Below, in pieces: positions 5,964 to 45,875 of a stretch of 64,000 nt of DNA. A model generated the notes under the pieces. That model saw only the letters and a program-made list of their open reading frames with translations, did not search any database and had not been told where the DNA came from. Source of the stretch: an uncultured Candidatus Saccharibacteria bacterium (lineage in GTDB: Bacteria; Patescibacteriota; Minisyncoccia; UBA6257; JACOXY01); assembly GCA_964357615.1 (NCBI GenBank), contig CAYHMC010000005.1, positions 24,064-88,063 of the forward strand, read 5' to 3'. The stretch's first letter is position 1. The number at the start of each line of letters is the position of its first letter. The position numbers and the translations under genes were made by a program.

Positions 5964-7595
5964 TTAAAATTTCCATGACGATCTCGTTTCTACAGCCCAT
6001 CTAAATTTCAATAAATTAGAACTATTGTAAATTTTTTCAATAGGAACTTCAACTGTTTTTGCCCATGCAACAACTATTCTTGGGTCTATGTAATTAACTT
6101 TACTTGTAATGGTGCTTAGATTTTCATTTTTTTCTATTAATTTTATTTTGTAGTCTTCGATCTTCTTTAAAGAAGATTCTTTTTGTTTGTCGGTTTGAGC
6201 TTGGTTTAAATTTATTGTTTCTTTTTCGATTTTCAATTCGAGTTCTTTTATCGTTTGTTCATTGTCTTGATTTAATTTTTTATGATTCAAGGCTCTTGCA
6301 GTTTCTATATTGGCTTTTTTAAAAGCTTGTAATTTTACAGCATCACTATCGTTTACATCGATCTTTATTTCACTCAATTTATTTTGAAGAATCGAAGACG
6401 CTTTCCATGTTCTAAAAACTTTTGCTGTCAATCCTGGAACTATCGATTTTAAGTAATCGTTAAGAGAAACTGCATTGATGGTATCAAACACAAGATCATC
6501 TTCTTTTTTATTTTTAAGAAAAGAAGAAATTCGTTCGTAAAGAATAGGTGCAAAATTATATTGTTTATTGAATTCAATTGAACTTTTTCCGAAAAAGTTA
6601 ATTTGAATTTGATTATTTGGAAGCAATTTTATGTTTGAAACTTTTAAAGTTGTTAAACCAACTGTATCATTGTCTACAGTTTCATCTTTTTCTGTTCCAG
6701 GTCTTATAGCCATTTTATCGAGAAAGAACACAGCCATACCAAACTGTTGATTTCTGATATAAGGTGATTTTATATCAGCAGAATATCGGTTAATGATAAG
6801 GGGTAAATTCTCTTTTAGAGATCTTGCTTTATCAAATTTTACTGTATCGGATTCTTCAACATAAGGCGATGTGTTTCTATCAAGTGAGATGTAAACATAC
6901 GAGTTTGTGACATTATTTTTATATTTGGCGAGGTATGTTACGCTTGGTATAACTTCTTTTTTATACCAATCATTTCCGTGAACATTCGTTCCATTCACAG
7001 TAATTTCATTTGGTTTAAATCTTTTTTTGATTTTACCTCGAAGTTTGGAATCATGACCGATAAATAAACTTGGTGGTTGAACTCTGAAATTTCCAATTTT
7101 CATTGTCTGACCATCGATAATAGCCAACCCGAAATCTTCCTTTATTTGTTCTTTTTCTTCTTTTTCTTGTTTCTTTTCAGTGGGAAGCATCATACCTCTA
7201 ATTTCAGCTTTTTCTGTTTTGAAGGCGGAAACATAGTTCAACATATTCGAAAAATCTATTTTATTAAAATCAACTATTTCAGGGTGATGTTTCATTAGAA
7301 TAGGTTGCCAATCGTTCCAAAAATTTGCGTTGAATAAAGCATCAACCGTTTTTTTTCTTTTTGAAGATCTTGAACTTGATGACAGCCTTTCATCTTGCTC
7401 TTTAACAAGACAATATAAATAAGCACATTCTTCTGCAGATAGATTAAGATTGTTTTCTTTACTGTTCGCATTCAATTTGACTGGTTGACCATCATATGTT
7501 ATAAAAGCACCGTCAGGAAGGGGAACATACTCTTCTGGAAAAAGCGGACCACTATGTTCAAGTGTCTGCCAACGTATTTTTCCGCGTTTACTCAT
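5964..7595 (-). CDS. TOP1: DNA topoisomerase IB, eukaryotic (TOP1) type
   Basis: Blocks align with human TOP1 core and C-terminal domains: [35 protein letters not shown] vs [52 protein letters not shown] vs [17 protein letters not shown]; C-terminal [27 protein letters not shown] vs [27 protein letters not shown], including the catalytic Tyr. Confidence 0.85.
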   Translation of the reverse strand: [543 protein letters not shown]

Positions 7596-8836: not shown

Positions 8837-10570
8837 TCAATCGAAAAAAGGATGCTTCAAAGCTTCACTTGCGCTGATTCTAAGTTTCGGTTCTACCTCG
8901 AGCATTCGTTCAAGAAGATTGATAAAAAGATTTTTATCGGTTTCATTTTCGAACTTGGAATTCAAGACAATTTTATTTTTTGAAAATCTTGGAAACCAAA
9001 CATCTGTATTGGAAGAACACCAATCAACATCAAAAAAGTTATTTTTAATATACTCAAGACTGGGTGAACCATATTTTTGAAAAATTTCAAAAAGTATATG
9101 TATGTTACTTTTCTTTTCAAAAAGAGGAATCTTTTCAATCATTTCATAAAAAACACAACCAACACTCCAGATATCAATCTTATTATCGAAACGCGTGCAT
9201 TCAAGACACAGTTCTGGTGCTCTATACCATTTTGTGGTAAGTTCATTGTATCTTTCGATTGAATCGAAAGGATTATCAATGGAACTACCAAAATCTATGA
9301 TCTTAATCACATCATCGTTCGAAACAAGCATGTTAGACGGTTTCAGATCTGTATGAATTATATCTAAACTATGAAGATATTCTACACCCGATAATATCTG
9401 CTTAAAATATTTTTTAAGATCTGAAACAGAAAACTTTTTAGAAAGATAAAAGTCTCTCAAACATCTCTTATATAAAGGCATATAAAAACAAGTATTTATA
9501 TCGTTTACTTGAATATTTTTAATAGAAATAATATTTTCGTGGTTCATTCTGTTTAGAAAAGCAATTTCTCTTATAGCAGACGGGCAAACACCAGAATTAT
9601 TTTCAATGACTTTCACGGCTACATCATGGTTTGCTAATCGAAAAACATTAGAAAAAGCCCCGTTACCAATTTCTTTCTTTTTTGAATCAAAATCAAAAAC
9701 TAAAACGGATTCCATATTTTTAAGATTTGTTTCATACTTTACTTTACTTTTTTTAGAAACGATTTTAAAAGAACTAACAACATTGTTATTAATATTGTTT
9801 ATCAAAGATAAACATTTTGAAGACAGGATAGAGACATCTTTCTGATCTTTCAATTTCAGAAAAACCAGGCATGCATCAGCTTGTGTTTTTAGAGAAAAAA
9901 AATTAAACTCGCTTTGACTTAGAACAATACTTAAACAAGTTTCAAGGTTTGATGCTAGTTCTTTATCATAAAAATTATTTAATCGAAAAAAAGACATAAT
10001 CGAAGTGTATTCAAAGTCGACTTTAAGATTATCCAAAATAAACGTTTCAAAATGAAAAATAACATCCTTTTCTGTTTCCGAATATTTATTAAATAATTGT
10101 TTTCGAATATCAAAGTATATAAATTTACTTGCAATAACAAAACAAGCCATTAATTCTAGTTCATTTACATTCTTGCATTGTCTAACGTGAATGAACTTAT
10201 CAAAAATAGTTATTGTCAAACAAAGAATCAAAAAATTCATTTCATCATGGTTGAAAGTAGATTTATATTTTTCAATAAATTTTTTGACAACCGCGTTTCT
10301 GTTTGAACAAAAGCTGTTTTCAAAAGAAAAAACATCTTTTGCATTCGATTCTTTAAAACAACAATTCGGTTTCTTTTTTTCTTTATTTAAGATAACTTTT
10401 TGAGCTTTATATGTGTCTTTCTTTTTTCTTAAAACAAAACAAAAATCATCACTATTATAACTGCGAATTTCTTTTTTTTCATATGAATCTGATTCTGGTA
10501 TTTTGTCAAGTTCAGATTTATCAAAACACAAAATATAGTTGTAAAAATCATCTTCATATCTAACTTCCAT
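8837..10570 (-). CDS. Ser/Thr protein kinase, CDK-like, with N-terminal cyclin-box-like domain (577 aa)
   Basis: C-terminal kinase motifs: GNGAFSNVF (Gly loop), AVKVI (beta-3 Lys), HTDLKPSNMLV (catalytic loop), DFGSS, WYRAPE, DIWSVGCV. N-terminal ~250 aa shows cyclin-box-like blocks (LELMACFVIASKFIYFDI vs cyclin LQLVGTAAMLIASKFEEI; EKDVIFHFETFILDNLKVDF). Confidence 0.8.
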   Translation of the reverse strand: MEVRYEDDFYNYILCFDKSELDKIPESDSYEKKEIRSYNSDDFCFVLRKKKDTYKAQKVILNKEKKKPNCCFKESNAKDVFSFENSFCSNRNAVVKKFIEKYKSTFNHDEMNFLILCLTITIFDKFIHVRQCKNVNELELMACFVIASKFIYFDIRKQLFNKYSETEKDVIFHFETFILDNLKVDFEYTSIMSFFRLNNFYDKELASNLETCLSIVLSQSEFNFFSLKTQADACLVFLKLKDQKDVSILSSKCLSLINNINNNVVSSFKIVSKKSKVKYETNLKNMESVLVFDFDSKKKEIGNGAFSNVFRLANHDVAVKVIENNSGVCPSAIREIAFLNRMNHENIISIKNIQVNDINTCFYMPLYKRCLRDFYLSKKFSVSDLKKYFKQILSGVEYLHSLDIIHTDLKPSNMLVSNDDVIKIIDFGSSIDNPFDSIERYNELTTKWYRAPELCLECTRFDNKIDIWSVGCVFYEMIEKIPLFEKKSNIHILFEIFQKYGSPSLEYIKNNFFDVDWCSSNTDVWFPRFSKNKIVLNSKFENETDKNLFINLLERMLEVEPKLRISASEALKHPFFD

Positions 10571-10580
10571 CTTGCCTTTC

Positions 10581-10620
10581 TTTTAAAATTTTTCAAAAAA
10601 ATTTTAAAATCATTTTTTAA
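10581..10620 (-). promoter_or_regulatory. Class-1 upstream motif (minus-strand orientation) for kinase gene 8837..10570
   Basis: In gene orientation reads AAAAAATGATTTTAAAATTTTTTTGAAAAATTTTAAAAGAAAGGCAAG then ATG. Confidence 0.5.
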
Positions 10621-10645
10621 TAATGAAAAAATAAGAATTAATTAT

Positions 10646-12397
10646 TTACTCGAACAACGGATGTTTCAACGCTTCTGAAGCGCTGATTCGTTTTTCTGGG
10701 ATCACTTGAAGCAACTTTGAAAGAAGATCTAGAAAATTCGTTCTGTCGTTTTCAATCTCAAATTTATATCGGATTGTCAATGGTTTAACGATAGGATTTG
10801 GAAACCATGAAAAGGGAAGATCTCGTTCCATATAATATGTATTATCAGACAAGGCGTATTCTTCCTTTGTTGGTTTTCCAATTTTTGAGAAAATTTTTAA
10901 CAATGTTTCGAAGTTGCTTTTGGCTGAAAACAATGGAATTTTTTCAACCATATCATAAAAAACACAACCGATACTCCACATGTCAATTTTATTGTCGAAA
11001 GTAAGACATTCAAGACATAATTCAGGTGCACGATACCATAAAGTTGTAAATTCGTCACCGTAACGATGACTCATTCCATTCAAGTTACACACTGAATTTC
11101 CAAAATCAATTATCTTTACAATTCCATCTTTTGAAACCATGATGTTACTTGGTTTGAGATCGGTATGAATTATACCTAGTTTGTGAAAATATTCTACGCC
11201 TCTCAAAATCTGTTTGAAAAGATTTTTAATTGTTGAAAAGTTAAGCTTATTATCGTTAACAAAATCACGTAAATTACGAGGATGATAATCCATGAAAAAG
11301 CAAACATCACTTTCGTTTACACTTATATTTTTAATAAAAATAATATTTTCATGTTCTAGTTTAGGTAGAAAAGCCATTTCACGAATGGCAGACGGACATA
11401 CGCCATCATGGTCAGATTTAATAACTTTGACAGCCAATTCATTTTCGATTTTAAAAACACAACCGTAAGAACCAGCTTCTAAACGTGTTTTTTTGTTCAT
11501 ATCGAATGAAGAAGAACAATTTGTTTTGTTTTCAATCTTATTGTTGGTTTGTTTAGTTTTTTTGGAAATAATTTTGAAAGAAAACAATTTACCATCATGA
11601 ATTTGCTTCAATAAATCAGAACATTTTTTAACACTTTCTGTCTGCGTGATAGCAATTCTTTTGAAATTGATCAAAGAAAGGCATGCATCAGCTTGAGTTT
11701 TATATGAGAAAAAACTAAACTCTGTATTCGTCAGCAAAATTTTGAGATATGGTTCGATTTCATTGATTTCAGACACAGTCAAAATGTAATAATCGATAAA
11801 TGAAAAAACTGACATGTGATCAAAGTTGTATTTAATCGATTCCAAAATATAACTTTCATAATGAATGATAGTATCTCTATCGGCTTCAGAAAAAGTTTCA
11901 AATCTTTCAGATATCTCACGTTGATATGTGACAAAATAATTAAACTTGTGTGCAATGAGAATACAAGCCATGAATTGTAGTTCATTAATGTTTTTAATTT
12001 TTTTGATATAAATAAAATTATCAAAGATGCGAGAAGCTAGAAAAAGATTTTTTAGATTTCTACAACCAATAACTTCTGTTTTTGGTTGAAAAAACAATTT
12101 GATAAATTTCAACATTATGCTGTGCCTGTTTCTTTTATGATTAATTACATTAGGAATGACATCTTTGAGATCGGTTGTGTTAACGATTTTTTTACCATCC
12201 ATTAAAAATTTTTCGTTAGAAATAAAATCGTCTTTTTTAACTTTATCATCGCTTTCATTTTTTCTTTTTCTATAGAAAAACGATTCTCGATTATAACTGA
12301 TAACGTTTTTATATTCATAATTTTTTTTAAGTAGAGAATCGTTTAATTTAGAACAGACAACATAATCATAAACATCATCTTCATAATTCACTTCCAT
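10646..12397 (-). CDS. Ser/Thr protein kinase, CDK-like, with N-terminal cyclin-box-like domain (583 aa); tandem paralog of 8837..10570
   Basis: Same architecture and motifs: GSYGCVFK, AVKVI, HTDLKPSNIMV, DFGNS, WYRAPE; N-terminal LQFMACILIAHKFNYF block. Both paralogs start MEV.YEDD.Y.Y and end SASEALKHP.F. Confidence 0.8.
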   Translation of the reverse strand: MEVNYEDDVYDYVVCSKLNDSLLKKNYEYKNVISYNRESFFYRKRKNESDDKVKKDDFISNEKFLMDGKKIVNTTDLKDVIPNVINHKRNRHSIMLKFIKLFFQPKTEVIGCRNLKNLFLASRIFDNFIYIKKIKNINELQFMACILIAHKFNYFVTYQREISERFETFSEADRDTIIHYESYILESIKYNFDHMSVFSFIDYYILTVSEINEIEPYLKILLTNTEFSFFSYKTQADACLSLINFKRIAITQTESVKKCSDLLKQIHDGKLFSFKIISKKTKQTNNKIENKTNCSSSFDMNKKTRLEAGSYGCVFKIENELAVKVIKSDHDGVCPSAIREMAFLPKLEHENIIFIKNISVNESDVCFFMDYHPRNLRDFVNDNKLNFSTIKNLFKQILRGVEYFHKLGIIHTDLKPSNIMVSKDGIVKIIDFGNSVCNLNGMSHRYGDEFTTLWYRAPELCLECLTFDNKIDMWSIGCVFYDMVEKIPLFSAKSNFETLLKIFSKIGKPTKEEYALSDNTYYMERDLPFSWFPNPIVKPLTIRYKFEIENDRTNFLDLLSKLLQVIPEKRISASEALKHPLFE

Positions 12398-12406
12398 ATT
12401 GTCTTC

Positions 12407-12445
12407 TTTTTAAAATTTTTTAAAAATTTTAAAAATCATTTTTTA
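12407..12445 (-). promoter_or_regulatory. Class-1 upstream motif for kinase gene 10646..12397
   Basis: In gene orientation reads ATAAAAAATGATTTTTAAAATTTTTAAAAAATTTTAAAAGAAG then ATG. Confidence 0.5.
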
Positions 12446-12812: not shown

Positions 12813-13340
12813 TCAATGCACAATTCTATACGAGATATAATCGTTCTCTCTTTTCACTTCGATTATCCTTCCAACTTGAAAATTAAAAAACTTCGAAATA
12901 GGATCGTTTCGAAGAATAACAGGGATATTGTCACCCCATTTTTTCTTAAATTCATAAGATTCTTTTGCTGAAAGTTGTCTATGAGGGTAATACAACGAAT
13001 GTTTAGTTATGTTGAATTGAAGATTATCAATTGGAAAAGTTTCAATCTTAATACCGATGGTTTTATTTTGAGAAATTGTTTTACTAGCGCAATTTGTCGG
13101 TTCATTCTCGATAATGATCAATCCGTGATTGATCTTCTTGTCATTCAGAATTTTAATGATCTCTTTAACCTCGTTTGTATCTGGTTTGACAATAATCTTT
13201 TTGAAGACACAAATGAAACCTGTGTTTTTGCCTTCATCAGTCATATTTGAATAAAGAAAATCATCGTCTTCTGTTACGTTTGTATAGTTACGTTGGGAAA
13301 ACATTTCTTTTACGGTTTGCAAAGCTTTTGATAATTTCAT
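12813..13340 (-). CDS. RPB5: DNA-directed RNA polymerase subunit Rpb5 (RPABC1) homolog
   Basis: C-terminal block HSLYYPHRQLSAKE...NIPVILRNDPISKFFNFQVGRIIEVKRENDYISYRIV aligns with eukaryotic Rpb5 HELVPEHVVL...[40 protein letters not shown]. Size 175 aa. Class-1 motif upstream at 13341..13380. Confidence 0.75.
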   Translation of the reverse strand: MKLSKALQTVKEMFSQRNYTNVTEDDDFLYSNMTDEGKNTGFICVFKKIIVKPDTNEVKEIIKILNDKKINHGLIIIENEPTNCASKTISQNKTIGIKIETFPIDNLQFNITKHSLYYPHRQLSAKESYEFKKKWGDNIPVILRNDPISKFFNFQVGRIIEVKRENDYISYRIVH

Positions 13341-13383: not shown

Positions 13384-13998
13384 TTAATCGAAAGTAAGAA
13401 TCGCTGATTCTACTTTCGTTTTACAAAGTGGACAATCGTTATTACAAGCGATCTGCTGTGTTTGTTTTAGACAAGAGTTACAATAACAGACATGACCACA
13501 TGGAATAAGAACAATAACTTTTTTATTGTCGCAACAAAAAATACATTGTTCATCCTGTTTGTCTGTTTTGGTATCTTTGAAATTTTTAGTTTCATTAAGC
13601 ACTTTAATTGGCTTCTTTTTTTGTCTCTCTTTATTCTCTTTATTTTCACTGTTGATCATCATCATATATTCCTTGAAGCTGTTTTTGATGTATTCATTTT
13701 CCATCTGTTGCAACATCTCGTTTTTATCTTGTTTGTTTTCTGTTTCAGGATCAGGTTGAAAACCATATTGTTGACATAGATCTTGTGTAACCCAATCGTA
13801 AGGAACAAAAGTTTTTTTGGAAATTCTTCCAATCACTCTTTTATCCAGCTTAGACTTAAAAACAAGTTTGGAGCGAAAATCATAATACATTTTCAATGAT
13901 CGATTAAAAGAAACTTTTGAAAGGTCATTGAAAGCAGGAACAATCAAAATTTGATTGTTTACTTCGTTTACTTCATTTAACTTGTTTTCAACTTGCAT
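13384..13998 (-). CDS. RING-finger (C3HC4, IAP-type) protein, putative E3 ubiquitin ligase
   Basis: C-terminus CIFCCDNKKVIVLIPCGHVCYCNSCLKQTQQIACNNDCPLCKTKV matches the RING-HC spacing with the CGH signature. Class-1 motif upstream at 14007..14042. Confidence 0.7.
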   Translation of the reverse strand: MQVENKLNEVNEVNNQILIVPAFNDLSKVSFNRSLKMYYDFRSKLVFKSKLDKRVIGRISKKTFVPYDWVTQDLCQQYGFQPDPETENKQDKNEMLQQMENEYIKNSFKEYMMMINSENKENKERQKKKPIKVLNETKNFKDTKTDKQDEQCIFCCDNKKVIVLIPCGHVCYCNSCLKQTQQIACNNDCPLCKTKVESAILTFD

Positions 13999-14067
13999 TT
14001 TTGTTTTGCAAAAAAAATTTTTTTAAAATCATTTTTAAAAAATCAAACGACAATGATGCCTATAAAA

Positions 14068-15308: not shown

Positions 15309-15989
15309 TTATTTTCGAATATATTTCAATGCAGATGGATTCTTTTTAGCAACTTCTAATATTTTTTCAGTTTGATTTTCAACATATTTCAGAATATATC
15401 CATTTTCTTTTATTGCTTCTAAACAGATTTCTTCGGTTTGATTTTTAACAAATTGTAATGCATAACTATTACATTTTACAGCTTCGAAACAGATTTCTTC
15501 GGTTTGATTTTTAACAAACTTTAATGCCAATCCGCACGTTCTAACAGCTTCTAAACAGATTTTTTCCGTTTGTTTTTTAACATTAACTAACGAATAACCA
15601 TCTCGTTTTACTGCTTCTAAACAGATTTTTTCAGTTTGATTCTTGACAAATAATAAAGAACATCTATTCTTCTTTACAGCTTCAAGACAGAAGTTTTCAT
15701 TTTCCCACTCATTCCAATCCTTCAAATCGATAATTTTTTCGATGAAGATGGAATCCGCTTTACTTTTATTTTTATTTTGGAAATGACAAACTTTTGCTGT
15801 TTCGGGAATAGAAACAAAAGCCAGTTTTGTACCAAAACTTAACCATTCAGGAACATCTTCTTTCCTACAGAAATGAAGACCATTCTCACATTCTTCATCG
15901 TTGAAGACAGAAGTATCGATATTCAACCCTAATTTGTATTGAAACCTATGATGATTCATTTTATCATTCAAAACCTTATAATATTGCAT
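15309..15989 (-). CDS. DUF4116-like 22-aa tandem-repeat protein with conserved MQYYKVLN N-terminal domain (226 aa)
   Basis: N-terminal ~110 aa MQYYKVLNDKMNHHRFQYKLGLNIDTS...GLHFCRKEDV...KLAFVSIPETAKVCHF, then about 5 repeats of VKNQTEKICLEAVK.NGY.L.YV. The repeat resembles Pfam DUF4116, from memory. Class-1 motif upstream (15990..16026) overlaps the stop of the next gene. Confidence 0.65.
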   Translation of the reverse strand: MQYYKVLNDKMNHHRFQYKLGLNIDTSVFNDEECENGLHFCRKEDVPEWLSFGTKLAFVSIPETAKVCHFQNKNKSKADSIFIEKIIDLKDWNEWENENFCLEAVKKNRCSLLFVKNQTEKICLEAVKRDGYSLVNVKKQTEKICLEAVRTCGLALKFVKNQTEEICFEAVKCNSYALQFVKNQTEEICLEAIKENGYILKYVENQTEKILEVAKKNPSALKYIRK

Positions 15990-16025
15990 TTAAAAATTTT
16001 TTCAAAAAATTTTTAAATTCATTTT

Positions 16026-16847
16026 TCAGAAACTGATGTCGATATATTTTGATGCTAATGGGTTTTGTTTAACCGCTTCTAACAATATCTTTTCAGTTTT
16101 TTTTTTAACATATCGTAATGCATATCCATTTCGTTTTACAGCTTCTAAACAGATTTCTTCAGTTTGATTTTTGACGTATTCTAGAGCACTTTCATTCTGT
16201 TTTACTGCTTCAAAACAGATTTCTTTTGTTTGTTTTTTGACGTATTGTAATGCCGAACCATTCTGTTTTACAGCTTTTAAACAGATTTCTTCCGTTTGAT
16301 TTTTGACGTATTGTAATGATTCACCATGTCGTTTTACTGCTTCTAAACAGATTTCTTCAGTTTGATTTTTTACGTATTTTAAAGCATAACCAGACCGCTT
16401 TACTGCTTCTAAACAGATTTTTTCAGTTTGATTTTTAACAAAATACAAAGAATAAGCGTTCAGTTTTACAGCTTCTAAACAGATTTCTTCAGTTTGATTT
16501 TTGACGTATTGTAATGAATTACCATGTCGTTTAACAGCTTCAAGACAGAAGTTTTCATTTTCCCACTCATTCCAATCCTTCAAATCGATAATTTTTTCGA
16601 TGAAGATGGAATCCGCTTTACTTTTATTTTTATTTTGGAAATGACAAACTTTTGCTGTTTCGGGAATAGAAACAAAAGCCAGTTTTGTACCAAAACTTAA
16701 CCATGATAGAACATCTTCTTTTCTACAGAAATGAAGGCCGTTTTCACACGTTTCATCATTGAAAGCCGACGTATCGATATTCAACCCTAATTTGTATTGA
16801 AACCTATGGTGATTCATCTCCTCATTCAAAACCTTGTAGTATTGCAT
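16026..16847 (-). CDS. DUF4116-like repeat protein, paralog (273 aa)
   Basis: Same N-terminal domain; about 8 repeats of VKNQTEEICLEAVK(R/Q)(N/H)G.AL(Q/K)YV. Confidence 0.65.
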   Translation of the reverse strand: MQYYKVLNEEMNHHRFQYKLGLNIDTSAFNDETCENGLHFCRKEDVLSWLSFGTKLAFVSIPETAKVCHFQNKNKSKADSIFIEKIIDLKDWNEWENENFCLEAVKRHGNSLQYVKNQTEEICLEAVKLNAYSLYFVKNQTEKICLEAVKRSGYALKYVKNQTEEICLEAVKRHGESLQYVKNQTEEICLKAVKQNGSALQYVKKQTKEICFEAVKQNESALEYVKNQTEEICLEAVKRNGYALRYVKKKTEKILLEAVKQNPLASKYIDISF

Positions 16848-16882
16848 TTAAAAATTTTCAAATAAAATTTTTAAATTCATTT

Positions 16883-17824
16883 TTAGTTTCGAATATATCT
16901 AGAAGCATCTTTGTCCTCTTTTAAAGCTTCAAAACAGATTTCTTCGGTTTGATTTTTAACAAATTGCAACGCTAAACCGTTCTGTTTTACTGCCTCTAAA
17001 CAGATTTCTTCAGTTTGATTTTTAACATATTCTAATGCATAACCACGTTGTTTTACTGCTTCAAGACATATCTCATTTGTTTGATTTCCAATATACATCA
17101 ATGCTGAACCCTCCTTTTTAATAGCTTCTAAACAGATTTCTTCAGTTTGATTTTTAACATATGCTAATGCGTAACCATCCCGTTTTACAGCTTCAAAACA
17201 TATTTCTTCAGTTTGATTTTTAACAAACTTTAATGCCAATCCGCACGTTCTAACAGCTTCTAAACAGATTTTTTCAGTTTGGTTTTTGACATAATCTAAT
17301 GCAAAACCAAGATTCTTCACAGCTTCTAAACAGATTTTTTCAGTTTGGTTTTTGACAAATTTTAGGGAATAACCATCGTGTTTTACAGCTTCAAGACATA
17401 TTTCTTCGGTTTGGTTTTGAACATCTTGAAGAGCATATCCACGTTGTTTTACAGCCTCTAAACATATTTTTTCAGTCTGATTTTTAACATATACTAAAGA
17501 GTATTCATTCTTCTTTACAGCTTCTAAACAGAAGTTTTCATTTTCCCACTCACACCAATCCTTCAAATCGATAATTTTTTCGATGAAGATGGAATCAGCT
17601 TTGCTTTCATTAATTTCGTGACAAACTTTCGCTGTTTCGGGAATAGTAATAAAAGCCAGTTTGTTTCCATATTCTAACCATAAAGGAACATTTTCTTTTT
17701 TATAGAAAATGATACCAAAATAATAGTCTTTAATATCAGAAATTGAAGTTTTAACATTCAACCCTAATTTGTATCGAGATTCTGAATCTCTCATTTTATC
17801 ATTCAAAACCTTGTAGTATTGCAT
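16883..17824 (-). CDS. DUF4116-like repeat protein, paralog (313 aa)
   Basis: More divergent N-terminal domain (MQYYKVLNDKMRDSESRYKLGLNV); about 10 repeats. Confidence 0.65.
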   Translation of the reverse strand: MQYYKVLNDKMRDSESRYKLGLNVKTSISDIKDYYFGIIFYKKENVPLWLEYGNKLAFITIPETAKVCHEINESKADSIFIEKIIDLKDWCEWENENFCLEAVKKNEYSLVYVKNQTEKICLEAVKQRGYALQDVQNQTEEICLEAVKHDGYSLKFVKNQTEKICLEAVKNLGFALDYVKNQTEKICLEAVRTCGLALKFVKNQTEEICFEAVKRDGYALAYVKNQTEEICLEAIKKEGSALMYIGNQTNEICLEAVKQRGYALEYVKNQTEEICLEAVKQNGLALQFVKNQTEEICFEALKEDKDASRYIRN

Positions 17825-17859
17825 TTAAAAATTTTTAAAAAAATTTTTAAATTCATTTT

Positions 17860-20800
17860 TTATTTAATATTCAACTTCAAAAGAAGTGTGTTTAATTCTG
17901 TAAAAAGGAGTTTACTTGCATAAGGTATCGTTACCCATTTAATATCATTTTCTTTGCAACTTTGACAACTAGTCTCATTGGCAACCATAATTTCACATTT
18001 TTTACAAACTGGAATTTTAAAAGGATCAGAAACTTTAAATAATCTTTCATTAATAACAGAAGCGACACCATGGGCAACTAATGCATCTCTTTCCATTTCA
18101 CCAAGTTTTAGACCACCGTCTCTACTTCTGCCTTCGAGTGGTTGTCTTGTTAAATTAGTGAGACTTCCTCTTGCACGTGCATGCATTTTATCAGAAACCA
18201 TGTGTTTCAATCTCTGGTAATAAGTTGGTCCCATGAAGATTTTCGATTGAAATCTTTCTCCTGTGATACCACAATACATAGTTGTCCATCCGTATGGATC
18301 TATATACGATCCAGTCTTTGAATTGAATCCATTCTTTTTCAATCTTTCAACCAACTTATCAGCTACATTAACACTCGATTCTGTGAATGGTGTTGCATCT
18401 GCAAATGAACCTGTTTCTAAACATTCTTTTCCAAGAACACATTCAATAAGTTGATTGATTGTCATACGTCCTGGAATACAACATGGATTAATAATGATAT
18501 CTGGAACCATTCCATCTGCTGTTCTAGGCATATCGATCTCTGGAATAATAGCACCAACCGTAGCTTTCTGAGAAGATCTCGCTGCGAACTTATCTCCTAA
18601 AGTTGGTTGTCTCCATTCTCTAATTACAATTTTAATTACTTTGTAACCATTCGGATTGATTGAAACATGAACCCTATCAATGGTTCCTTCTTGATCTTGA
18701 TGAATGATGATACTTTCGTCTGTCTTTGTGTATTCACTATTTTTATTTCCAGAACAGATCACTTTTCCAATGATGACATCACCTTTTTTAACAAAGGTGC
18801 ATTCACCGTAGTATTCACCTTTTTCATTTCTGAATTTTCTAGGTCTAACAATTCCGTTTTCATCGAGCAGTGCATAGTTTGCATTTTTTCTTTTAAAAAA
18901 CTTTGTATCTGTATCTTTAATTCCAACTGTTGAAGCAGGTGGTAAACAAATTTCTTCGTAACTATAAGTATCTCTCTTTTTCTCACAGTATTCAATGGTG
19001 TAATAAGAAGTAATAGCGAATAACCCACGTTCAACAGAGGCTTTATTTAGCATACAAGAATCTTCTTGATTGTAACCCGAAAGCGCAGCGATCGCAACTA
19101 TCGCATTTAGACCAGAAGGCATTTCGTGTAGTTTTAGATACTTTGCGAGTTTGGTCGAGACAAGAGGTTTTTGTGGATAATGAAGAACATATAGATTTGT
19201 ATCTGTTCTAATGTTGTATGATTGAAGAGGAATTCCTAAAGCTTGCTTACCCATACTCGATTGGTAGCAGTTTCGTGGAGATTGGCTATGATCTGGAAAC
19301 GGAATACAACCAGCCATAATTCCAAGCATAACAAATGGATGAATCTCACAGTAATCATTCTGTTGAATCGCAAGATCTTTTTGAGTCATAGCAAGAACTT
19401 TGAATTCGATTTCAGATGGATCTAGAAATTCAACAAGTGAATTTTTAACAAGATCATTCCAATCATACTTTTCTTTGCGTTCAATAATCATTTTATTATT
19501 TTCAAGTCGCAATAAAGGTCTAATTAATCTTCCTTCATCACAGAAAATTCTTATTTCTTTGTCAACAGGATCGTAACTTATAGAAACTTCATAATTGATT
19601 ACCTGTGCACGTCTGAGTTTTAAAAATTTTGAAATTAATTTAACATGATCGTTTGTAAATCCAACAATACAACCATTCAAAAGAACGGGAATGAATACAA
19701 AATCGTATTTACAATCGTTTTCAACATCGAAGTTGTCGATTTGAATAATTTCTGGTAACTTATCAAGCACATTTCTAACTACAATTTTTTGTGTCTTTTT
19801 AGTGATATTTGCAGTCATTGATAGATTGAGAACTGTTCCAACTTTTTGACCTTCTGGAGTTTCACATGGACAAATGAAACCGTAACTAGACCCATGAATC
19901 TGTCTGATAGCAACGTTTTTTCCTTCTTTCTTACCAACAGGAATAATGATTCTTCTAAGATGTGAAAGAGACGATGCATATGTCATTCTATCAAGAACCT
20001 GTGAAACCCCCATTTTAACATACGAACCATTTTTCTGAACATTCCATGTTCCAGTGGCCATGCATTGATGAAGACCTTTTGTGATGATATTATTATTTTT
20101 GATGATGAGTGAAAGTATATCTGGTTTTTGTTTAAGTGTTGTAATACGGGATGAAATGGTGTTAATAAATTTTTTAAAAAGATTACAAAAAATTTCCGAA
20201 AAAAGCATTCCAGTGCTTTCAATTCTTTTGTTAATATAATTATCTTTACTATCTTCAGCTCTGTCTTTCTTCAAGGTTCTAAAAAGTTTATTGATCATCA
20301 TTCCAAAAAATAAAGATTGTTCCTTAATTGTGCCTGAAATTCCGAAATGAGGAAGAGATTCATTTTGAATTACTTGCCATGCATACTTGGTTTTTTCGTT
20401 ACTTGGAATTTCGTGAATGGCGTGATTAGCAATAAATTTCAAAGCTTCTTCTTGAGTTTCACAAATCAACGAATCTCTATAAATATAAAGAATTAGTTTT
20501 TCATACTTCGGATCTGGCTTGATTCTAATCAAATTACGAATATCTTTTTCTGATGGAAAACCAAACGCTTTAAAAAGAATTCCGGCTAAGATAGGTTTTC
20601 CGATATGAGGAAGAATAAATGAAATAGTTCTTTCATCGGTCTCAATAATTGCTTTAATCGAAACCGAATGATTGGTTTCATTTGACATTGAACGAACTTC
20701 AGCCGAATATTTGATCTTCTTTTCACCTTTTTGTTTGAAGACACAAATTTGATTATAAATTCCTCTCATCTGAGATACAACAGCTCTTTCTTTTCCTTTA

Positions 20801-21273
20801 ATAATAAAGTAACCACCAGAATCGTTTCTACATTCACCTTTTTCTATTCTTTGTTCTGGTGACAAAGAATAGAGATTGCAAATACACGATCGAAGCATAA
20901 TTGGCAATCTACCAATCATGATTTTATTGTGTTCTTTAACGGTTTCATTTTTATTTTCCGAATTTGAATTAGTTTCAATAATATTACAAAAGATAGGGCA
21001 ATCATAAGTCAGAATTCTTCTTCTTGCATCAAAGGGAAATAAAGGATGCAGTTCCCTGTTTGTCTCACAGATAAAAGATTGACCCAAACAAACGTTTTCA
21101 AATTTAATCGAATATCCTTGTGATGAAATCACAGAATTCTGTTCAATGATCTCTTGAAGACCGTATGTTACAAAATCATTAAAGGATGATATTTGACAAT
21201 CAACCAAAGAAACTGCACGAAAATACGAATCGAGTATATTCCAAATATATTTTTCTTCAAGATGAGTTTCCAT
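17860..21273 (-). CDS. RPB2: DNA-directed RNA polymerase second-largest subunit (RPB2)
   Basis: Conserved Rpb2 blocks: GDKFAARSSQKATVG, GMVPDIIINPCCIPGRMTINQLIE, GITGERFQSKIFMGPTYYQRLKHMVSDKMHARARG, PLEGRSRDGGLKLGEMERDALVAHG. Track ORF start 21309 is an artefact of the ATG inside the upstream motif; the likely start is ATG ~21273 (METHLEEK). About 1137 aa, no intein. Confidence 0.9.
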   Translation of the reverse strand: METHLEEKYIWNILDSYFRAVSLVDCQISSFNDFVTYGLQEIIEQNSVISSQGYSIKFENVCLGQSFICETNRELHPLFPFDARRRILTYDCPIFCNIIETNSNSENKNETVKEHNKIMIGRLPIMLRSCICNLYSLSPEQRIEKGECRNDSGGYFIIKGKERAVVSQMRGIYNQICVFKQKGEKKIKYSAEVRSMSNETNHSVSIKAIIETDERTISFILPHIGKPILAGILFKAFGFPSEKDIRNLIRIKPDPKYEKLILYIYRDSLICETQEEALKFIANHAIHEIPSNEKTKYAWQVIQNESLPHFGISGTIKEQSLFFGMMINKLFRTLKKDRAEDSKDNYINKRIESTGMLFSEIFCNLFKKFINTISSRITTLKQKPDILSLIIKNNNIITKGLHQCMATGTWNVQKNGSYVKMGVSQVLDRMTYASSLSHLRRIIIPVGKKEGKNVAIRQIHGSSYGFICPCETPEGQKVGTVLNLSMTANITKKTQKIVVRNVLDKLPEIIQIDNFDVENDCKYDFVFIPVLLNGCIVGFTNDHVKLISKFLKLRRAQVINYEVSISYDPVDKEIRIFCDEGRLIRPLLRLENNKMIIERKEKYDWNDLVKNSLVEFLDPSEIEFKVLAMTQKDLAIQQNDYCEIHPFVMLGIMAGCIPFPDHSQSPRNCYQSSMGKQALGIPLQSYNIRTDTNLYVLHYPQKPLVSTKLAKYLKLHEMPSGLNAIVAIAALSGYNQEDSCMLNKASVERGLFAITSYYTIEYCEKKRDTYSYEEICLPPASTVGIKDTDTKFFKRKNANYALLDENGIVRPRKFRNEKGEYYGECTFVKKGDVIIGKVICSGNKNSEYTKTDESIIIHQDQEGTIDRVHVSINPNGYKVIKIVIREWRQPTLGDKFAARSSQKATVGAIIPEIDMPRTADGMVPDIIINPCCIPGRMTINQLIECVLGKECLETGSFADATPFTESSVNVADKLVERLKKNGFNSKTGSYIDPYGWTTMYCGITGERFQSKIFMGPTYYQRLKHMVSDKMHARARGSLTNLTRQPLEGRSRDGGLKLGEMERDALVAHGVASVINERLFKVSDPFKIPVCKKCEIMVANETSCQSCKENDIKWVTIPYASKLLFTELNTLLLKLNIK

Positions 21274-21276
21274 TTT

Positions 21277-21322
21277 TAATTTTTTTTTCGAAAAAAAAAT
21301 TAAAATCATTTTTAAAAATTTT
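21277..21322 (-). promoter_or_regulatory. Class-1 upstream motif for RPB2
   Basis: In gene orientation reads TTTTTAAAAATGATTTTAATTTTTTTTTCGAAAAAAAAATTAAAA then ATG. Confidence 0.5.
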
Positions 21323-21330: not shown

Positions 21331-22272
21331 TTACTTTTTAACATATTTCAAAGCATCTCTGTCCTGTTTTACAGCTTCTAAACAGATTCCTTCTGTTTGG
21401 TTTTTAACATAGCATAAAACACACCCATTCTTTTTTACAGCTTCTAAACACATCTCTTCAGTTTGGTTTTTAACATACTCTAAAGCCATTCCATCCTGTT
21501 TTACAGCTTCTAAACACACTTTTTCAGTTTGGTTTTTAACAAAATACAAAGCATGTCCATCCTGTTTTACAGCTTCTAAACACACTTTTTCAGTTTGGTT
21601 TTCGACATACTGTAAAGCCCATCCATAATTTCTAACAGCTTCTAAACAGATTTCTTCAGTTTGGTTTTTAACAGAAAACAAAGCATTTCCATCCTGTTTT
21701 ACAGCTTCTAAACATATTTTTTCAGTTTGGTTTTTAACAAAAGACAAAGCATTTACATCCTGTTTTACAGCTTCTAAACAAATTCCTTCAGTTTGATTTT
21801 TAACAAACAGTAAAGCATATCCATCCTGTTTTACAGCTTCTAAACAGATTTCTTCAGTTTGGTTTTTAACATACTGTAAAGCATATCCATTCTTTTTTAC
21901 AGCTTCTAAACAGATTTTTTCAGTTTGGTTTTTAACATACTTCAAAACCAATCCATCCCGTTTTACAGCTTCCAAACAGAATTCTTTATTTTCCCATTCA
22001 TTCCAATCTTGCAAATCGACAACTTTTTCAATAAAGATAGAACTAGCTTTGCTTTTATTTTCAAAATAACAAACTTTTGCCGTTTCAGGAATAGTAATAA
22101 AAGCTAATTTAGAACCGTAACTCAGCCATGATCCAATGTCTTCTTTTTTACAGAAATGAAGACCTTTTTCGCATTCTTTATCGTTGAATTCAGATGTATC
22201 AATATTCAACCCTAGTTGATATTGAAAACCATTGTGTTTCATTTCATTGTTTAAAACTTTGTAGTATTGCAT
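21331..22272 (-). CDS. DUF4116-like repeat protein, paralog (~314 aa)
   Basis: MQYYKVLNNEMKHNGFQYQLGLNIDTS N-terminal domain plus about 10 repeats. Track ORF (to 22353) is extended through the promoter ATG; the real start is ATG ~22272. Confidence 0.65.
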   Translation of the reverse strand: MQYYKVLNNEMKHNGFQYQLGLNIDTSEFNDKECEKGLHFCKKEDIGSWLSYGSKLAFITIPETAKVCYFENKSKASSIFIEKVVDLQDWNEWENKEFCLEAVKRDGLVLKYVKNQTEKICLEAVKKNGYALQYVKNQTEEICLEAVKQDGYALLFVKNQTEGICLEAVKQDVNALSFVKNQTEKICLEAVKQDGNALFSVKNQTEEICLEAVRNYGWALQYVENQTEKVCLEAVKQDGHALYFVKNQTEKVCLEAVKQDGMALEYVKNQTEEMCLEAVKKNGCVLCYVKNQTEGICLEAVKQDRDALKYVKK

Positions 22273-22325
22273 TTTAATTTTTTTTTGAAAAAAATTAAAA
22301 ATCATTTTTTTATTTTTAAAAATAA

Positions 22326-45838: not shown

Positions 45839-45875
45839 AAAATGATTTTAAAAATTTTTTTTAAAAAAAATAAAA

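What the first reader, a model, noticed from the sequence alone, without database searches (positions are those of the whole stretch)
8837..12397. Tandem pair of apparent cyclin-box + CDK-like kinase fusion proteins
Both ~580-aa proteins have a C-terminal kinase with CDK/MAPK-like features: WYRAPE activation segment, HTDLKPSN catalytic loop (Thr replaces the usual Arg), DFG(S/N)S. Their ~280-aa N-terminal regions contain blocks resembling the cyclin box: LELMACFVIASKFIYFDI and LQFMACILIAHKFNYF versus cyclin A/B LQLVGTAAMLIASKFEEI, followed by a second helical block similar to cyclin KKQVLRMEHLVLKVLTFDL. A single polypeptide carrying both the regulatory cyclin fold and the CDK would be an unusual, constitutively self-activated kinase aimed at the host cell cycle. 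The two copies are about 40% identical, so the duplication is old. I am not aware of a characterised viral cyclin-CDK fusion. The N-terminal homology is my pattern match only.
Basis: inference. Interest (0 to 1): 0.75.

Follow-up and report, generated by a model that had tools for sequence, protein, structure and literature searches.

The report
Tandem giant-virus cyclin–CDK fusion genes
Two neighbouring genes of an uncultured giant virus each encode one protein that joins a highly diverged cyclin to a CDK-type kinase, a natural single-chain version of the cell-cycle engine that probably switches itself on without the host's usual controls.

Summary
Two minus-strand ORFs (8837-10570, 577 aa; 10646-12397, 583 aa) are 43% identical paralogs in a giant-virus (NCLDV) contig from groundwater.

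The C-terminal halves are CDK-family kinases. Their best solved relatives are CDK16, CDK1 and CDK2 (E ~1e-41 to 1e-43), and they carry a PSTAIRE-like CPSAIRE helix.

The kinase lacks the HRD arginine, Arg150 and Thr160, so activation-loop phosphorylation is probably not needed. Intramolecular self-activation and the host cell cycle as target are inferences.

The architecture is not unique. Pfam-detectable kinase/cyclin fusions, in both domain orders and sometimes in tandem, occur in other giant-virus contigs, including one of Orpheovirus genome size. I found no paper describing them. I rate this a new variant of a known kind, of moderately high interest.

The parts
10646..12397 (-). Gene K2, 583 aa: cyclin-like domain followed by a CDK-family kinase
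   Evidence: ORF. Pkinase 302-582, E 4.8e-52. Best PDB relatives CDK16/CDK1/CDK2, E ~1e-41 to 1e-43. The exact sequence is in NCBI/ENA/MGnify/Logan without a name.
12140..12397 (-). K2 residues 1-86: family-specific N-terminal region with the conserved MEVxYEDDxYxY motif and a basic cluster (RKRK)
   Evidence: Conserved in K1, K2 and P0003. MAFFT aligns the motif with the N-terminal helix of cyclin A/B (DYxEDIxxY). AlphaFold confidence here is below 50 and the prediction is strands, so the role is unknown. Basic cluster.
11582..12139 (-). K2 residues 87-272: diverged cyclin domain with two cyclin folds; D126, K151 and E181 correspond to cyclin A D240, K266 and E295
11495..11581 (-). K2 residues 273-301: low-confidence, Lys/Asn-rich linker between the cyclin-like domain and the kinase
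   Evidence: pLDDT below 50 from residue 273. Poorly conserved between the paralogs.
10649..11494 (-). K2 residues 302-583: CDK-family kinase domain with a CPSAIRE helix, HTD catalytic loop, DFGNS and WYRAPE
   Evidence: The equivalents of K33, E51, D127, N132 and D145 are conserved. R126 is replaced by T and R150 by V, and no Thr stands at the T160 position (the alignment is ambiguous between Tyr and Gly).
8837..10570 (-). Gene K1, 577 aa: paralog of K2 with the same architecture
   Evidence: ORF. 43% identity to K2 over the full length. Pkinase 297-576, E 2.9e-54. Identical in two independent assemblies.
9773..10315 (-). K1 residues 86-266: diverged cyclin domain (D124, K149, E175)
   Evidence: Aligned with K2 87-272. 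Part of profiles A1/A2, which hit cyclins.
8840..9682 (-). K1 residues 297-577: CDK-family kinase domain; its glycine loop reads GNGAFS, so Ala-Phe replace CDK Thr14-Tyr15
10596..10617 (-). Promoter-like motif AAAAATGATTTTAAAATTTTTT; its 5' end lies 47 nt upstream of the K1 ATG
   Evidence: The motif occurs 25 times in the window against 0.59 expected, mostly just upstream of genes.
12422..12443 (-). The same promoter-like motif (AAAAATGATTTTTAAAATTTTT); its 5' end lies 46 nt upstream of the K2 ATG
   Evidence: The ortholog in L004 has the motif too.

Best explanation
K1 and K2 are paralogous giant-virus genes. Each encodes a natural single-chain cyclin-CDK.

Layout, from N to C terminus: a family-specific N-terminal region (~85 aa); a strongly diverged cell-cycle-type (A/B/E-like) cyclin domain with two cyclin folds (~185 aa); a ~30-aa flexible linker; and a catalytically intact CDK-family kinase.

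Shown here: the domain architecture, its conservation in three related viruses, the intact catalytic residues, the PSTAIRE-like helix, the conserved cyclin Lys/Glu pair, and the absence of the Thr160/Arg126/Arg150 phospho-switch.

Inferred mechanism: the cyclin domain docks on the CPSAIRE helix of its own kinase, as cyclin A does on CDK2. This would hold the kinase in the active conformation without CDK-activating-kinase phosphorylation and without dependence on host cyclin levels. No conserved D-box or KEN degron is present. K1 additionally has Ala-Phe at the Wee1/Myt1 sites.

Inferred function: the product would be a constitutively active, probably proline-directed kinase, expressed from the virus's common promoter motif. 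It would phosphorylate CDK-type substrates of the host, of the virus, or of both, to create a replication-permissive state.
For: Kinase identity:
- Pfam Pkinase E ~1e-52 to 1e-54.
- The best 60 PDB hits are all CDKs, led by CDK16 (7.6e-43), CDK1 and CDK2.
- GVCPSAIRE aligns with CDK2 GVPSTAIRE, and the catalytic K33/E51/D127/N132/D145 equivalents are kept.

Cyclin identity, from profiles that contain no cyclin sequence:
- In an exhaustive HMMER search of 1.84e9 proteins, every hit is a family member except a repeat artefact (P0004) and one B-type cyclin, P0005 (E 4.8e-4, profile 114-257 against its cyclin box).
- All 11 PDB hits with E<10 are cyclins E1 or A2.
- hhalign gives 91.3% probability against P0005.
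- hhalign gives 91.35% over 159 columns against a 120-cyclin alignment, spanning both cyclin folds.

Controls:
- Real cyclins score a median of 12.1 bits (maximum 33.9). Shuffled cyclins reach 3.25 bits at the 99th percentile (maximum 9.9).
- Column-shuffled profiles reach at most 8.5 bits, and the reversed profile gives 0.1% probability.
- In the other direction, a cyclin-only HMM hits only K2 among the 106 window ORFs (E 0.0039).

Conserved residues and structure:
- D126, K151 and E181 align with cyclin A D240, K266 and E295 and are at least 90% conserved across the family plus cyclins.
- The family-only model predicts the same helices, with pLDDT 64-84 over residues 90-190, and cyclin/TFIIB folds dominate its non-significant Foldseek list.

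Loss of the phospho-switch:
- HTD replaces HRD in all four family members, Arg150 is absent, and no Thr stands at the T160 position.
- The role of R50/R126/R150 in binding pT160, and the precedent of a viral cyclin activating CDK6 without T-loop phosphorylation, are taken from PMC6170502.

Feasibility and conservation:
- Engineered cyclin-CDK fusions are reported as functional (search listing; Coudreuse and Nurse 2010 from my own knowledge).
- The fusion is conserved with the same gene neighbours in relatives whose topoisomerase IB is 60-72% identical.
- Each paralog has its own copy of the virus-wide promoter-like motif.
Against: - Pfam Cyclin_N/Cyclin_C do not hit K1 or K2 even at E<=10.
- The 2-sequence profile found nothing in the PDB, and the best 4-sequence PDB E-value is only 0.047.
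- The unbiased AlphaFold model is poor (mean pLDDT 47.9) and has no significant Foldseek hit.
- The register of helix alpha1 (MRAIL patch, Arg211) differs between alignments.
- No model or measurement of the cyclin-kinase interface was possible, so intramolecular docking, constitutive activity, substrate specificity and the host as target are all untested.
- The family is tiny (four divergent sequences), so conservation arguments are weak.
Confidence: 0.6

Rival explanations
1. The architecture is the same, but activation works in trans. The cyclin domain of one chain binds the kinase of another, as K1-K2 heterodimers or homodimers, so the tandem pair forms a reciprocal two-subunit enzyme rather than two self-contained ones.
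For: Two diverged paralogs are kept side by side, each with its own copy of the same promoter-like motif, which suggests co-expression. Nothing I could run distinguishes cis from trans docking.
Against: The more distant relative L004 has a single copy in the same position, so a heterodimer cannot be obligatory for the family. The ~30-residue linker is longer than the 15-residue linkers I recall for engineered cyclin-CDK fusions (own knowledge; the existence of such fusions appears in the listing).
Confidence: 0.2
2. The N-terminal domain descends from a cyclin but no longer activates the kinase. It serves as a substrate-recruiting or localisation module, or binds a host CDK or CKI. The kinase is an autonomous non-RD CMGC kinase.
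For: The HRD arginine and the T-loop phosphosite are lost, as in kinases that need no activation-loop phosphorylation. The cyclin domain is so diverged that Pfam misses it. The MRAIL/alpha1 register is unclear.
Against: The elements that mediate cyclin-CDK contact are among the best-conserved parts. These are the PSTAIRE-like helix CPSAI(R/K)E and the cyclin Lys266/Glu295 equivalents (interface roles from my own knowledge of the CDK2-cyclin A structure). The fusion is maintained in all known family members.
Confidence: 0.15
3. The N-terminal region is an unrelated all-helical domain, and its resemblance to the cyclin box is chance or composition (an AT-rich genome giving a Lys/Asn/Ile/Phe-rich protein).
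For: There is no Pfam hit. There is no significant Foldseek hit for the unbiased model. The PDB E-values are marginal.
Against: - A whole-library E of 4.8e-4 to a true cyclin, in the correct register.
- The only PDB hits are cyclins.
- hhalign gives 91% probability, against 0.1% for the reversed profile.
- Real cyclins far outscore shuffled targets and shuffled profiles.
- The D/K/E signature residues are conserved.
- The same helix boundaries are predicted with and without cyclins in the alignment.
Confidence: 0.05
4. Artefact: two separate genes merged by a sequencing or assembly error, or a eukaryotic contaminant contig.
For: None found.
Against: - Identical ORFs in independent assemblies.
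- Orthologous full-length ORFs in L004 and a partial one in L003.
- Near-identical copies in further runs.
- The flanking genes are NCLDV core genes: topoisomerase IB, Rpb5 and Rpb2.
- Genes are densely packed and share a promoter-like motif.
Confidence: 0.02

Closest known systems
Cellular cell-cycle cyclin-CDK holoenzymes (cyclin A/B/E with CDK1/CDK2)
   Same: The kinase is closest to CDK16/CDK1/CDK2 and has a PSTAIRE-like helix and WYRAPE. The N-terminal domain is closest to B-, E- and A-type cyclins, has two cyclin folds, and keeps the D240/K266/E295 equivalents.
   Different: - One polypeptide instead of two subunits.
- HTD instead of HRD, with no Arg150 and no Thr160, so no CAK switch.
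- No conserved D-box or KEN.
- The GDSEID (Cks-binding) segment is not conserved (its role is from my own knowledge).
- The cyclin part is too diverged for Pfam.
Engineered single-chain cyclin-CDK fusions (fission-yeast Cdc13-Cdc2 'minimal CDK network'; cyclin D1-CDK4/CDK2 fusions)
   Same: The same idea and the same domain order, cyclin then linker then CDK. These constructs show that such a fusion can be an active kinase (listing, e.g. PMC4319789; details from my own knowledge).
   Different: Those are laboratory constructs of unmodified cellular proteins and remain subject to CAK, Wee1 and APC/C. K1 and K2 are natural, viral and highly diverged, and they lack the T-loop phospho-switch.
Other giant-virus kinase/cyclin fusions in public contigs
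   Same: One ORF combines Pfam Pkinase and Cyclin_N in giant-virus contigs.
- Cyclin then kinase: L047 (596 aa) and three tandem genes in L122.
- Kinase then cyclin: L046, L055, L053, L051/L052, L061 and L115.
- BFVD also matched long Orpheovirus and Pithovirus 'cyclin-dependent kinase' proteins.
- Some of these are also non-RD: HCD in L053 and L051.
   Different: The window family shows no specific similarity to any of those cyclin domains (hhalign probability <5%), and its kinase is only ~35% identical to the nearest one. Its cyclin domain is below Pfam detection. It looks like a separate, possibly independent, fusion lineage.
Gammaherpesvirus v-cyclins (KSHV K-cyclin, HVS cyclin, MHV-68 M-cyclin)
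   Different: They are stand-alone cyclins that hijack host CDK6/CDK2. Here the virus supplies the kinase as well, on the same chain.
Herpesvirus conserved protein kinases (HCMV UL97 'v-CDK')
   Same: The functional analogy is a viral kinase that phosphorylates CDK substrates outside normal cellular CDK control (titles and abstracts listed).
   Different: UL97-type kinases are not CDK-family by sequence and carry no cyclin domain. K1 and K2 are true CDK-family kinases.
Stand-alone giant-virus cyclins (Medusavirus cyclin B-like, Clandestinovirus cyclin A2-like)
   Same: They are giant-virus cyclin homologs proposed to manipulate the host cell cycle (PMC10583209 and PMC8383183). The Medusavirus cyclin is a BFVD hit.
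   Different: In those reports the cyclins are described as separate genes, with no mention of a kinase on the same chain.

Membership tests
Cyclin (cyclin-box fold; Pfam Cyclin_N PF00134 / Cyclin_C PF02984) | Score above the Pfam gathering threshold for Cyclin_N | tested here: not met
   There is no Cyclin_N or Cyclin_C hit for K1, K2 or their isolated N-terminal regions, even at E<=10.
Cyclin (cyclin-box fold; Pfam Cyclin_N PF00134 / Cyclin_C PF02984) | Significant profile-level similarity to bona fide cyclins, in the cyclin-box register | tested here: met
   - E 4.8e-4 in 1.84e9 proteins to P0005. P0005 itself matches Cyclin_N at 3.9e-49.
- hhalign 91% probability.
- PDB hits are cyclins only.
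- Controls are negative.
- The reverse search with a cyclin-only HMM hits K2 at E 0.0039.
Cyclin (cyclin-box fold; Pfam Cyclin_N PF00134 / Cyclin_C PF02984) | Two tandem five-helix cyclin folds | tested here: met
Cyclin (cyclin-box fold; Pfam Cyclin_N PF00134 / Cyclin_C PF02984) | Signature residues of the cyclin box (cyclin A Arg211, Asp240, Lys266, Glu295) | tested here: inconclusive
   The Asp, Lys and Glu equivalents (K2 D126, K151, E181) are conserved in the family and aligned in every alignment. The Arg211 equivalent is ambiguous because the alpha1 register differs between alignments.
Cyclin (cyclin-box fold; Pfam Cyclin_N PF00134 / Cyclin_C PF02984) | Binds and activates a CDK | not testable with these tools
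   This needs biochemistry or a full-length or complex structure.
Cyclin (cyclin-box fold; Pfam Cyclin_N PF00134 / Cyclin_C PF02984) | APC/C degron (D-box or KEN) upstream of the cyclin box, as in mitotic cyclins | tested here: not met
   K1 and K2 have no RxxLxxxxN and no KEN. The KEN motifs in P0003 are not conserved.
Cyclin-dependent kinase (CMGC group, CDK family) | Protein kinase domain with intact catalytic residues, with CDKs as the closest relatives | tested here: met
   Pkinase E ~1e-52 to 1e-54. The top 60 PDB hits are all CDKs, E 7.6e-43 to ~3e-39. The K33/E51/D127/N132/D145 equivalents are present.
Cyclin-dependent kinase (CMGC group, CDK family) | PSTAIRE-type C-helix (the cyclin-binding helix) | tested here: met
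   GVCPSAIRE (K1, K2), GICPSAIRE (P0001) and GMCPSAIKE (P0003) align with CDK2 GVPSTAIRE.
Cyclin-dependent kinase (CMGC group, CDK family) | Activating T-loop threonine (CDK2 T160) with its Arg50/Arg126/Arg150 pocket | tested here: not met
   HTD replaces HRD in all four members. The DFG+3 Arg is replaced by V, I or M. No Thr stands at the T160 position (Tyr, Gly or Asn in the alignment). Only the Arg50 position is kept (Arg in three members, Lys in P0003). The role of the pocket is taken from PMC6170502.
Cyclin-dependent kinase (CMGC group, CDK family) | Inhibitory Thr14/Tyr15 in the glycine loop | tested here: inconclusive
   K2 and P0001 have Ser-Tyr, P0003 has Ala-Tyr, and K1 has Ala-Phe, which cannot be phosphorylated.
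Cyclin-dependent kinase (CMGC group, CDK family) | Activity depends on a cyclin partner | not testable with these tools
   This requires kinase assays with and without the N-terminal domain.
Giant-virus Pfam-detectable Pkinase/Cyclin_N fusion proteins (IMG/VR loci L046, L047, L051-L053, L055, L061, L115, L122) | Specific sequence relationship beyond shared domain types | tested here: not met
   hhalign of the family's N-terminal profile against each viral cyclin domain gives probability <5%. The nearest kinase (L047) is 35% identical, no closer than cellular CDK2 at 30-34%. Family-specific peptide patterns find nothing in IMG/VR or JGI metagenomes.

The most novel reading that the evidence does not exclude
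Single-chain cyclin-CDK enzymes are a recurrent, so far undescribed giant-virus invention that arose several times, in both domain orders and often as tandem arrays. The K1/K2 family would be its most derived form: a self-activating CDK that has shed CAK control, APC/C control and, in K1, Wee1 control. With it the virus could impose a CDK-high state on its host regardless of the host's own cyclin oscillator.
Probability: 0.35. Interest if true: 0.8.

Novelty: new variant of a known kind. Interest (0 to 1): 0.6.

Why it matters
Cyclin-CDK pairs are the central oscillator of the eukaryotic cell cycle, and their defining property is that kinase activity depends on a separate, periodically made and destroyed subunit. 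A natural protein that hard-wires the two together, and that has also lost the activating-phosphorylation switch, would show how a virus can bypass that logic completely.

It would also be a natural counterpart to the synthetic cyclin-CDK fusions used to study minimal cell-cycle control.

The survey done here suggests such fusions are widespread in giant viruses yet annotated only as 'protein kinase' or 'cyclin-dependent kinase'. This family shows that some are invisible to Pfam. Giant-virus potential for cell-cycle manipulation is therefore probably under-counted.

Tried and rejected
- **Pfam on the N-terminal regions:** no cyclin hit at E<=1 on the full proteins or at E<=10 on the isolated N-terminal regions.
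- **2-sequence N-terminal profile against the PDB:** only noise.
- **Word-indexed homolog searches with the N-terminal region:** both returned only one partial ortholog, P0001.
- **P0004 in the exhaustive search (E 4.7e-9, 13 stretches):** a 727-aa tandem-repeat protein. I rejected it as a repeat-summed artefact.
- **Family-specific peptide-pattern scans of IMG/VR (twice) and JGI metagenomes:** no relatives.
- **39 IMG/VR kinase loci found with kinase-motif patterns:** none carries a cyclin domain in or near the kinase gene.
- **Family-only AlphaFold model:** mean pLDDT 47.9, and Foldseek against the PDB gave no hit with E<0.1.
- **Cyclin Arg211 and the MRAIL patch:** three alignments gave three registers, so I left this open.
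- **Equating the N-terminal MEVxYEDDxYxY motif with the cyclin A/B N-terminal helix:** MAFFT aligns them, but AlphaFold predicts low-confidence strands. I kept this as a lead only.
- **D-box/KEN search:** nothing conserved.
- **Mimivirus early-promoter motif AAAATTGA:** depleted, 14 against 34.75 expected.
- **Relationship to the other viral cyclin/kinase fusions:** no specific similarity.
- **Literature searches for a described natural or viral cyclin-CDK fusion:** nothing found. The library covers only open-access papers and preprints, so this is absence of evidence.

Full report
**1. Observation**

They align over their whole length at 43% identity (E 3e-142). The N-terminal ~290 residues alone are 40% identical. 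All quoted motifs are present.

The surroundings are those of a nucleocytoplasmic large DNA virus:
- GC content is about 30%.
- Neighbouring genes include eukaryote-type topoisomerase IB (5964-7595), Rpb5 (12813-13340), a RING protein, Rpb2 (17860-21309), DUF4116-repeat proteins, RNase III, a papain-like protease and patatin.

The exact K1 protein is encoded on an 81-kb ENA contig named Hain_H41_01um (sample ERZ1292624) and in an independent Logan assembly. Both proteins are present, unnamed, in NCBI/ENA/MGnify.

Two related viruses have the same neighbourhood: RING, Rpb5, a small ORF, the kinase gene, a 237-aa ORF, a 144-aa ORF, topoisomerase IB.
- L004 has a single 575-aa ortholog, P0003.
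- L003 has a K2-like gene, P0001, cut by the contig end.

The long ORFs are therefore real and conserved.

**2. The kinase half**

Pfam Pkinase covers K1 297-576 and K2 302-582 (E 2.9e-54 and 4.8e-52). Against all PDB sequences the best 60 hits are all CDKs: CDK16 at 7.6e-43, then CDK1, CDK2, a parasite Cdc2-like kinase and CDK11.

- **Catalytic residues.** The equivalents of Lys33, Glu51, Asp127, Asn132, Asp145 and the WYRAPE segment are intact.
- **Cyclin-binding helix.** It reads GVCPSAIRE, against GVPSTAIRE in CDK2.
- **T-loop switch.** The catalytic loop is HTD, not HRD, in all four family members. The arginine after DFG (CDK2 Arg150) is replaced by V, I or M. No threonine stands at the Thr160 position.
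- **What that means.** According to the CDK structural review PMC6170502, Arg50, Arg126 and Arg150 form the pocket that binds phospho-Thr160. Two of the three arginines and the threonine itself are missing here. The kinase very probably does not use CAK-type activation-loop phosphorylation (inference).
- **Glycine loop.** K2 and P0001 keep Ser-Tyr at the Thr14/Tyr15 positions, and P0003 has Ala-Tyr. K1 has Ala-Phe, the same substitution as the classical Wee1-resistant 'AF' CDK mutants (own knowledge).

**3. The N-terminal half**

Pfam finds nothing there, and a 2-sequence profile finds nothing in the PDB.

An exhaustive HMMER search of 1.84 billion representative proteins with that 2-sequence profile returned only five proteins:
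- K1 itself (P0002);
- P0001;
- P0003;
- a tandem-repeat artefact (P0004);
- P0005 at E 4.8e-4, with profile positions 114-257 matching its residues 257-404.

P0005 is a textbook B-type cyclin (Cyclin_N E 3.9e-49, Cyclin_C 6.4e-19), and the match falls on its cyclin box.

With the 4-sequence family profile (A2), further tests gave:
- all eleven PDB sequences with E<10 are cyclin E1 or cyclin A2 (best 0.047);
- hhalign against P0005 gives 91.3% probability;
- hhalign against an alignment of 120 B-type cyclins gives 91.35% over 159 columns (K2 117-282), running through both cyclin folds.

Controls:
- The family HMM scores the 120 real cyclins at a median of 12.1 bits (maximum 33.9). Shuffled cyclins reach 3.25 bits at the 99th percentile (maximum 9.9).
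- Forty column-shuffled family profiles never exceed 8.5 bits, and the reversed profile gives 0.1% hhalign probability.
- In the other direction, an HMM built from cyclins alone hits exactly one of the 106 window ORFs, K2 residues 118-233, at E 0.0039.

K2 D126, K151 and E181 align with cyclin A Asp240, Lys266 and Glu295, and these columns are at least 90% conserved across the family plus cyclins. Lys266 and Glu295 are CDK-contacting residues in the CDK2-cyclin A structure (own knowledge). The register of helix alpha1, and hence Arg211 and the MRAIL patch, is not settled.

**4. Structure**

With only the four family sequences, AlphaFold2 gave a poor model: mean pLDDT 47.9, rising to 64-84 for residues 90-190. 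Foldseek against the PDB gave no significant hit, although cyclins H, A and B and TFIIB-type cyclin folds fill most of the top of the list.

Adding 22 B-type cyclin boxes to the alignment (A3) is what an iterative search would do anyway, given the E 4.8e-4 hit. It raised pLDDT to 75-94 over residues 87-272 with the same helix boundaries.

This result is not independent of the sequence evidence. It does show that the sequence is fully compatible with a two-repeat cyclin fold of the cell-cycle class.

Residues 1-86 and about 273-301 remain of low confidence. The former carries a conserved MEVxYEDDxYxY motif that MAFFT aligns with the N-terminal helix of cyclin A/B. It also carries a basic cluster (RKRK/RKKK) that could be a nuclear localisation signal. 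Both readings are speculative.

**5. How it most likely works**

Shown:
- a conserved single ORF joins a cyclin-type domain to a CDK-type kinase through a linker of about 30 residues;
- both halves of the canonical interface (the PSTAIRE-like helix and the cyclin Lys/Glu pair) are conserved;
- the T-loop phospho-switch is absent;
- no conserved D-box or KEN is present.

Inferred: the cyclin domain docks on its own kinase and keeps it active, independent of host cyclin supply, CAK and APC/C. The product would then be a constitutive, probably proline-directed kinase acting on CDK-type substrates of host or virus.

Precedents:
- a herpesvirus cyclin activates CDK6 without T-loop phosphorylation (PMC6170502);
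- engineered cyclin-CDK fusions are functional (listing; own knowledge).

Alternatives I cannot exclude are activation in trans between K1 and K2 or between identical chains, and a cyclin-derived domain that now serves only targeting.

**6. Expression signals and history**

The upstream regions of K1 and K2 are nearly identical over about 50 nt despite 43% protein identity. They contain the motif AAAAATGATTTTWAAAATTTTT, which occurs 25 times in the window against 0.59 expected, almost always just upstream of a gene. The ortholog in L004 has it too. Each paralog therefore has its own copy of the virus's common promoter-like element.

Protein identities:

| Pair | Identity |
|---|---|
| K2 vs P0001 | 73% |
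| K1 vs K2 | 43% |
| K1 vs P0001 | 46% |
| K1 or K2 vs P0003 | 37% |
| Topoisomerase IB, window vs L003 | 72% |
| Topoisomerase IB, window vs L004 | 60% |

The simplest history is a duplication after the split from the L004 lineage. K1 is then either older than the window/L003 split or fast-evolving. L003 is truncated, so whether it has a K1 is unknown.

**7. Comparison with what is known**

Reviews of giant-virus 'virologs' list stand-alone cyclins (Medusavirus, Clandestinovirus) but no cyclin-kinase fusion. Eight full-text searches found no description of a natural or viral cyclin-CDK fusion.

The architecture is nevertheless not unique.
- Foldseek of the N-terminal model against BFVD matched, besides herpesvirus and Medusavirus cyclins, long 'cyclin-dependent kinase' or 'protein kinase' entries of Pithovirus LCPAC302 (506 aa) and Orpheovirus (476 and 640 aa).
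- A cedratvirus virion proteome lists a 52-kDa 'cyclin dependent kinase 2' (PMC12724359).
- I scanned IMG/VR for DNA encoding TLWYRAPE and HRDLKPQN and ran Pfam on the kinase ORFs. This gave clear fusions in both domain orders, listed below.

| Locus | Domain order | Length | Pfam Cyclin_N E-value | Note |
|---|---|---|---|---|
| L046 | kinase then cyclin | 528 aa | 1.7e-36 | |
| L055 | kinase then cyclin | 560 aa | 2.8e-31 | weak Cyclin_C match too (E 0.0013, below the Pfam threshold) |
| L053 | kinase then cyclin | 598 aa | 1.9e-19 | |
| L051/L052 | kinase then cyclin | 546 aa | 9.8e-11 | |
| L061 | kinase then cyclin | 880 aa | 2.4e-19 | |
| L047 | cyclin then kinase | 596 aa | 4.3e-5 | |
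| L122 | cyclin then kinase | 497, 389 and 484 aa | 4.8e-14, 3.1e-6, 1.2e-10 | three tandem genes |

Some of these are also non-RD: L053 and L051 have HCD.

None is specifically related to K1/K2. hhalign probability is below 5% for every viral cyclin domain, and the nearest kinase is 35% identical, no closer than cellular CDK2. Family-specific patterns find nothing in IMG/VR or JGI metagenomes. K1/K2 thus represent a separate and rare lineage of cyclin-kinase fusion, known from only four viruses, whose cyclin half has diverged beyond routine annotation.

**8. Verdict**

The functional reading, a self-activated kinase aimed at the host cell cycle, is reasonable but untested.

Novelty: a new variant of a known kind. 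It is a natural single-chain cyclin-CDK without the T-loop switch, within a broader and apparently undescribed set of giant-virus cyclin/kinase fusions.

Interest: 0.6.

Noticed in passing
window, 25 sites, e.g. 10596-10617(-), 12422-12443(-), 14015-14036(-), 17839-17860(-), 45838-45859(+), 46722-46743(+), 61492-61513(-): A promoter-like motif, AAAAATGATTTTWAAAATTTTT, occurs 25 times against 0.59 expected. It almost always lies in the short spacers upstream of genes; for K1 and K2 its 5' end is 46-47 nt before the ATG. The motif is also present upstream of the ortholog in L004. Its first half resembles A-rich early-promoter cores of other NCLDVs (own knowledge). The Mimivirus motif AAAATTGA is depleted, 14 against 34.75 expected.
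   Followed up: partly
L004 1670-1708; window 21292-21313, 47801-47822, 62414-62435: The motif contains an ATG that gene callers can take as a start codon. P0003 is called as MIFKKFFKILKEMQIQYED..., but its true start is almost certainly MQIQYED. Several window ORF starts overlap the motif in the same way and may be a few codons too long: Rpb2 at 21309, the ORF at 47805, and the ORF ending at 62431.
   Followed up: partly
IMG/VR loci L046, L055, L053, L051/L052, L061, L115 (kinase then cyclin); L047 and L122 (cyclin then kinase): Pfam-detectable Pkinase+Cyclin_N fusions occur in one ORF in many giant-virus contigs, in both domain orders. L122 carries three such genes in tandem. L115 lies on a 1,473,573-bp contig, which is the Orpheovirus genome size. 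Six of the 17 viral loci with a TLWYRAPE-coding match carry a kinase ORF that also contains a cyclin domain above the Pfam threshold (L045 falls just below it).
   Followed up: partly
BFVD entries A0A481Z6Z1, A0A2I2L419, A0A2I2L647; PMC12724359: Pithovirus and Orpheovirus proteins annotated only as 'cyclin-dependent kinase' or 'protein kinase' (476-640 aa) match the cyclin-like model at Foldseek probability 0.99-1.0. A 52-kDa 'cyclin dependent kinase 2' is reported in cedratvirus virions. I could not fetch their sequences, so their domain order was not checked.
   Followed up: no
window 52194-54533, 54560-56848, 56884-59118 (+): Three tandem paralogous ORFs of 744-779 aa, 40-42% identical to one another, have no Pfam match.
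   Followed up: partly
window 15309-17824 and 21331-22353 (-): A cluster of DUF4116-repeat / DUF7666 proteins flanks the Rpb2 gene.
   Followed up: no
window 44024-45838 (+): One ORF combines a UDP-glucose/GDP-mannose dehydrogenase with a family-25 glycosyltransferase domain. A GT2 glycosyltransferase (49308-50720) and an FkbM-type methyltransferase (43026-43991) lie nearby. This may be a glycan-synthesis cluster.
   Followed up: no
window 13384-13998 (-) and 60084-61472 (-): There are two C3HC4 RING-finger proteins, the second with leucine-rich repeats. The first sits in the conserved block next to Rpb5 and the kinase genes, but it is only 31.5% identical to its L004 counterpart, against 77% for Rpb5.
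   Followed up: no
L003 1-1273; L004 1670-3397: Copy number differs between relatives. L004 has one cyclin-kinase gene. In L003 the gene next to the 235-aa ORF is K2-like (73% identical) rather than K1-like, but the contig ends inside it. Whether K1 was lost there, or arose later and diverged fast, is open.
   Followed up: partly
protein P0004: A 727-aa protein made of 13 near-identical ~52-aa repeats scored E 4.7e-9 against the N-terminal profile by summing weak repeat matches. It is a reminder that this library's E-values can be inflated by tandem repeats.
   Followed up: yes
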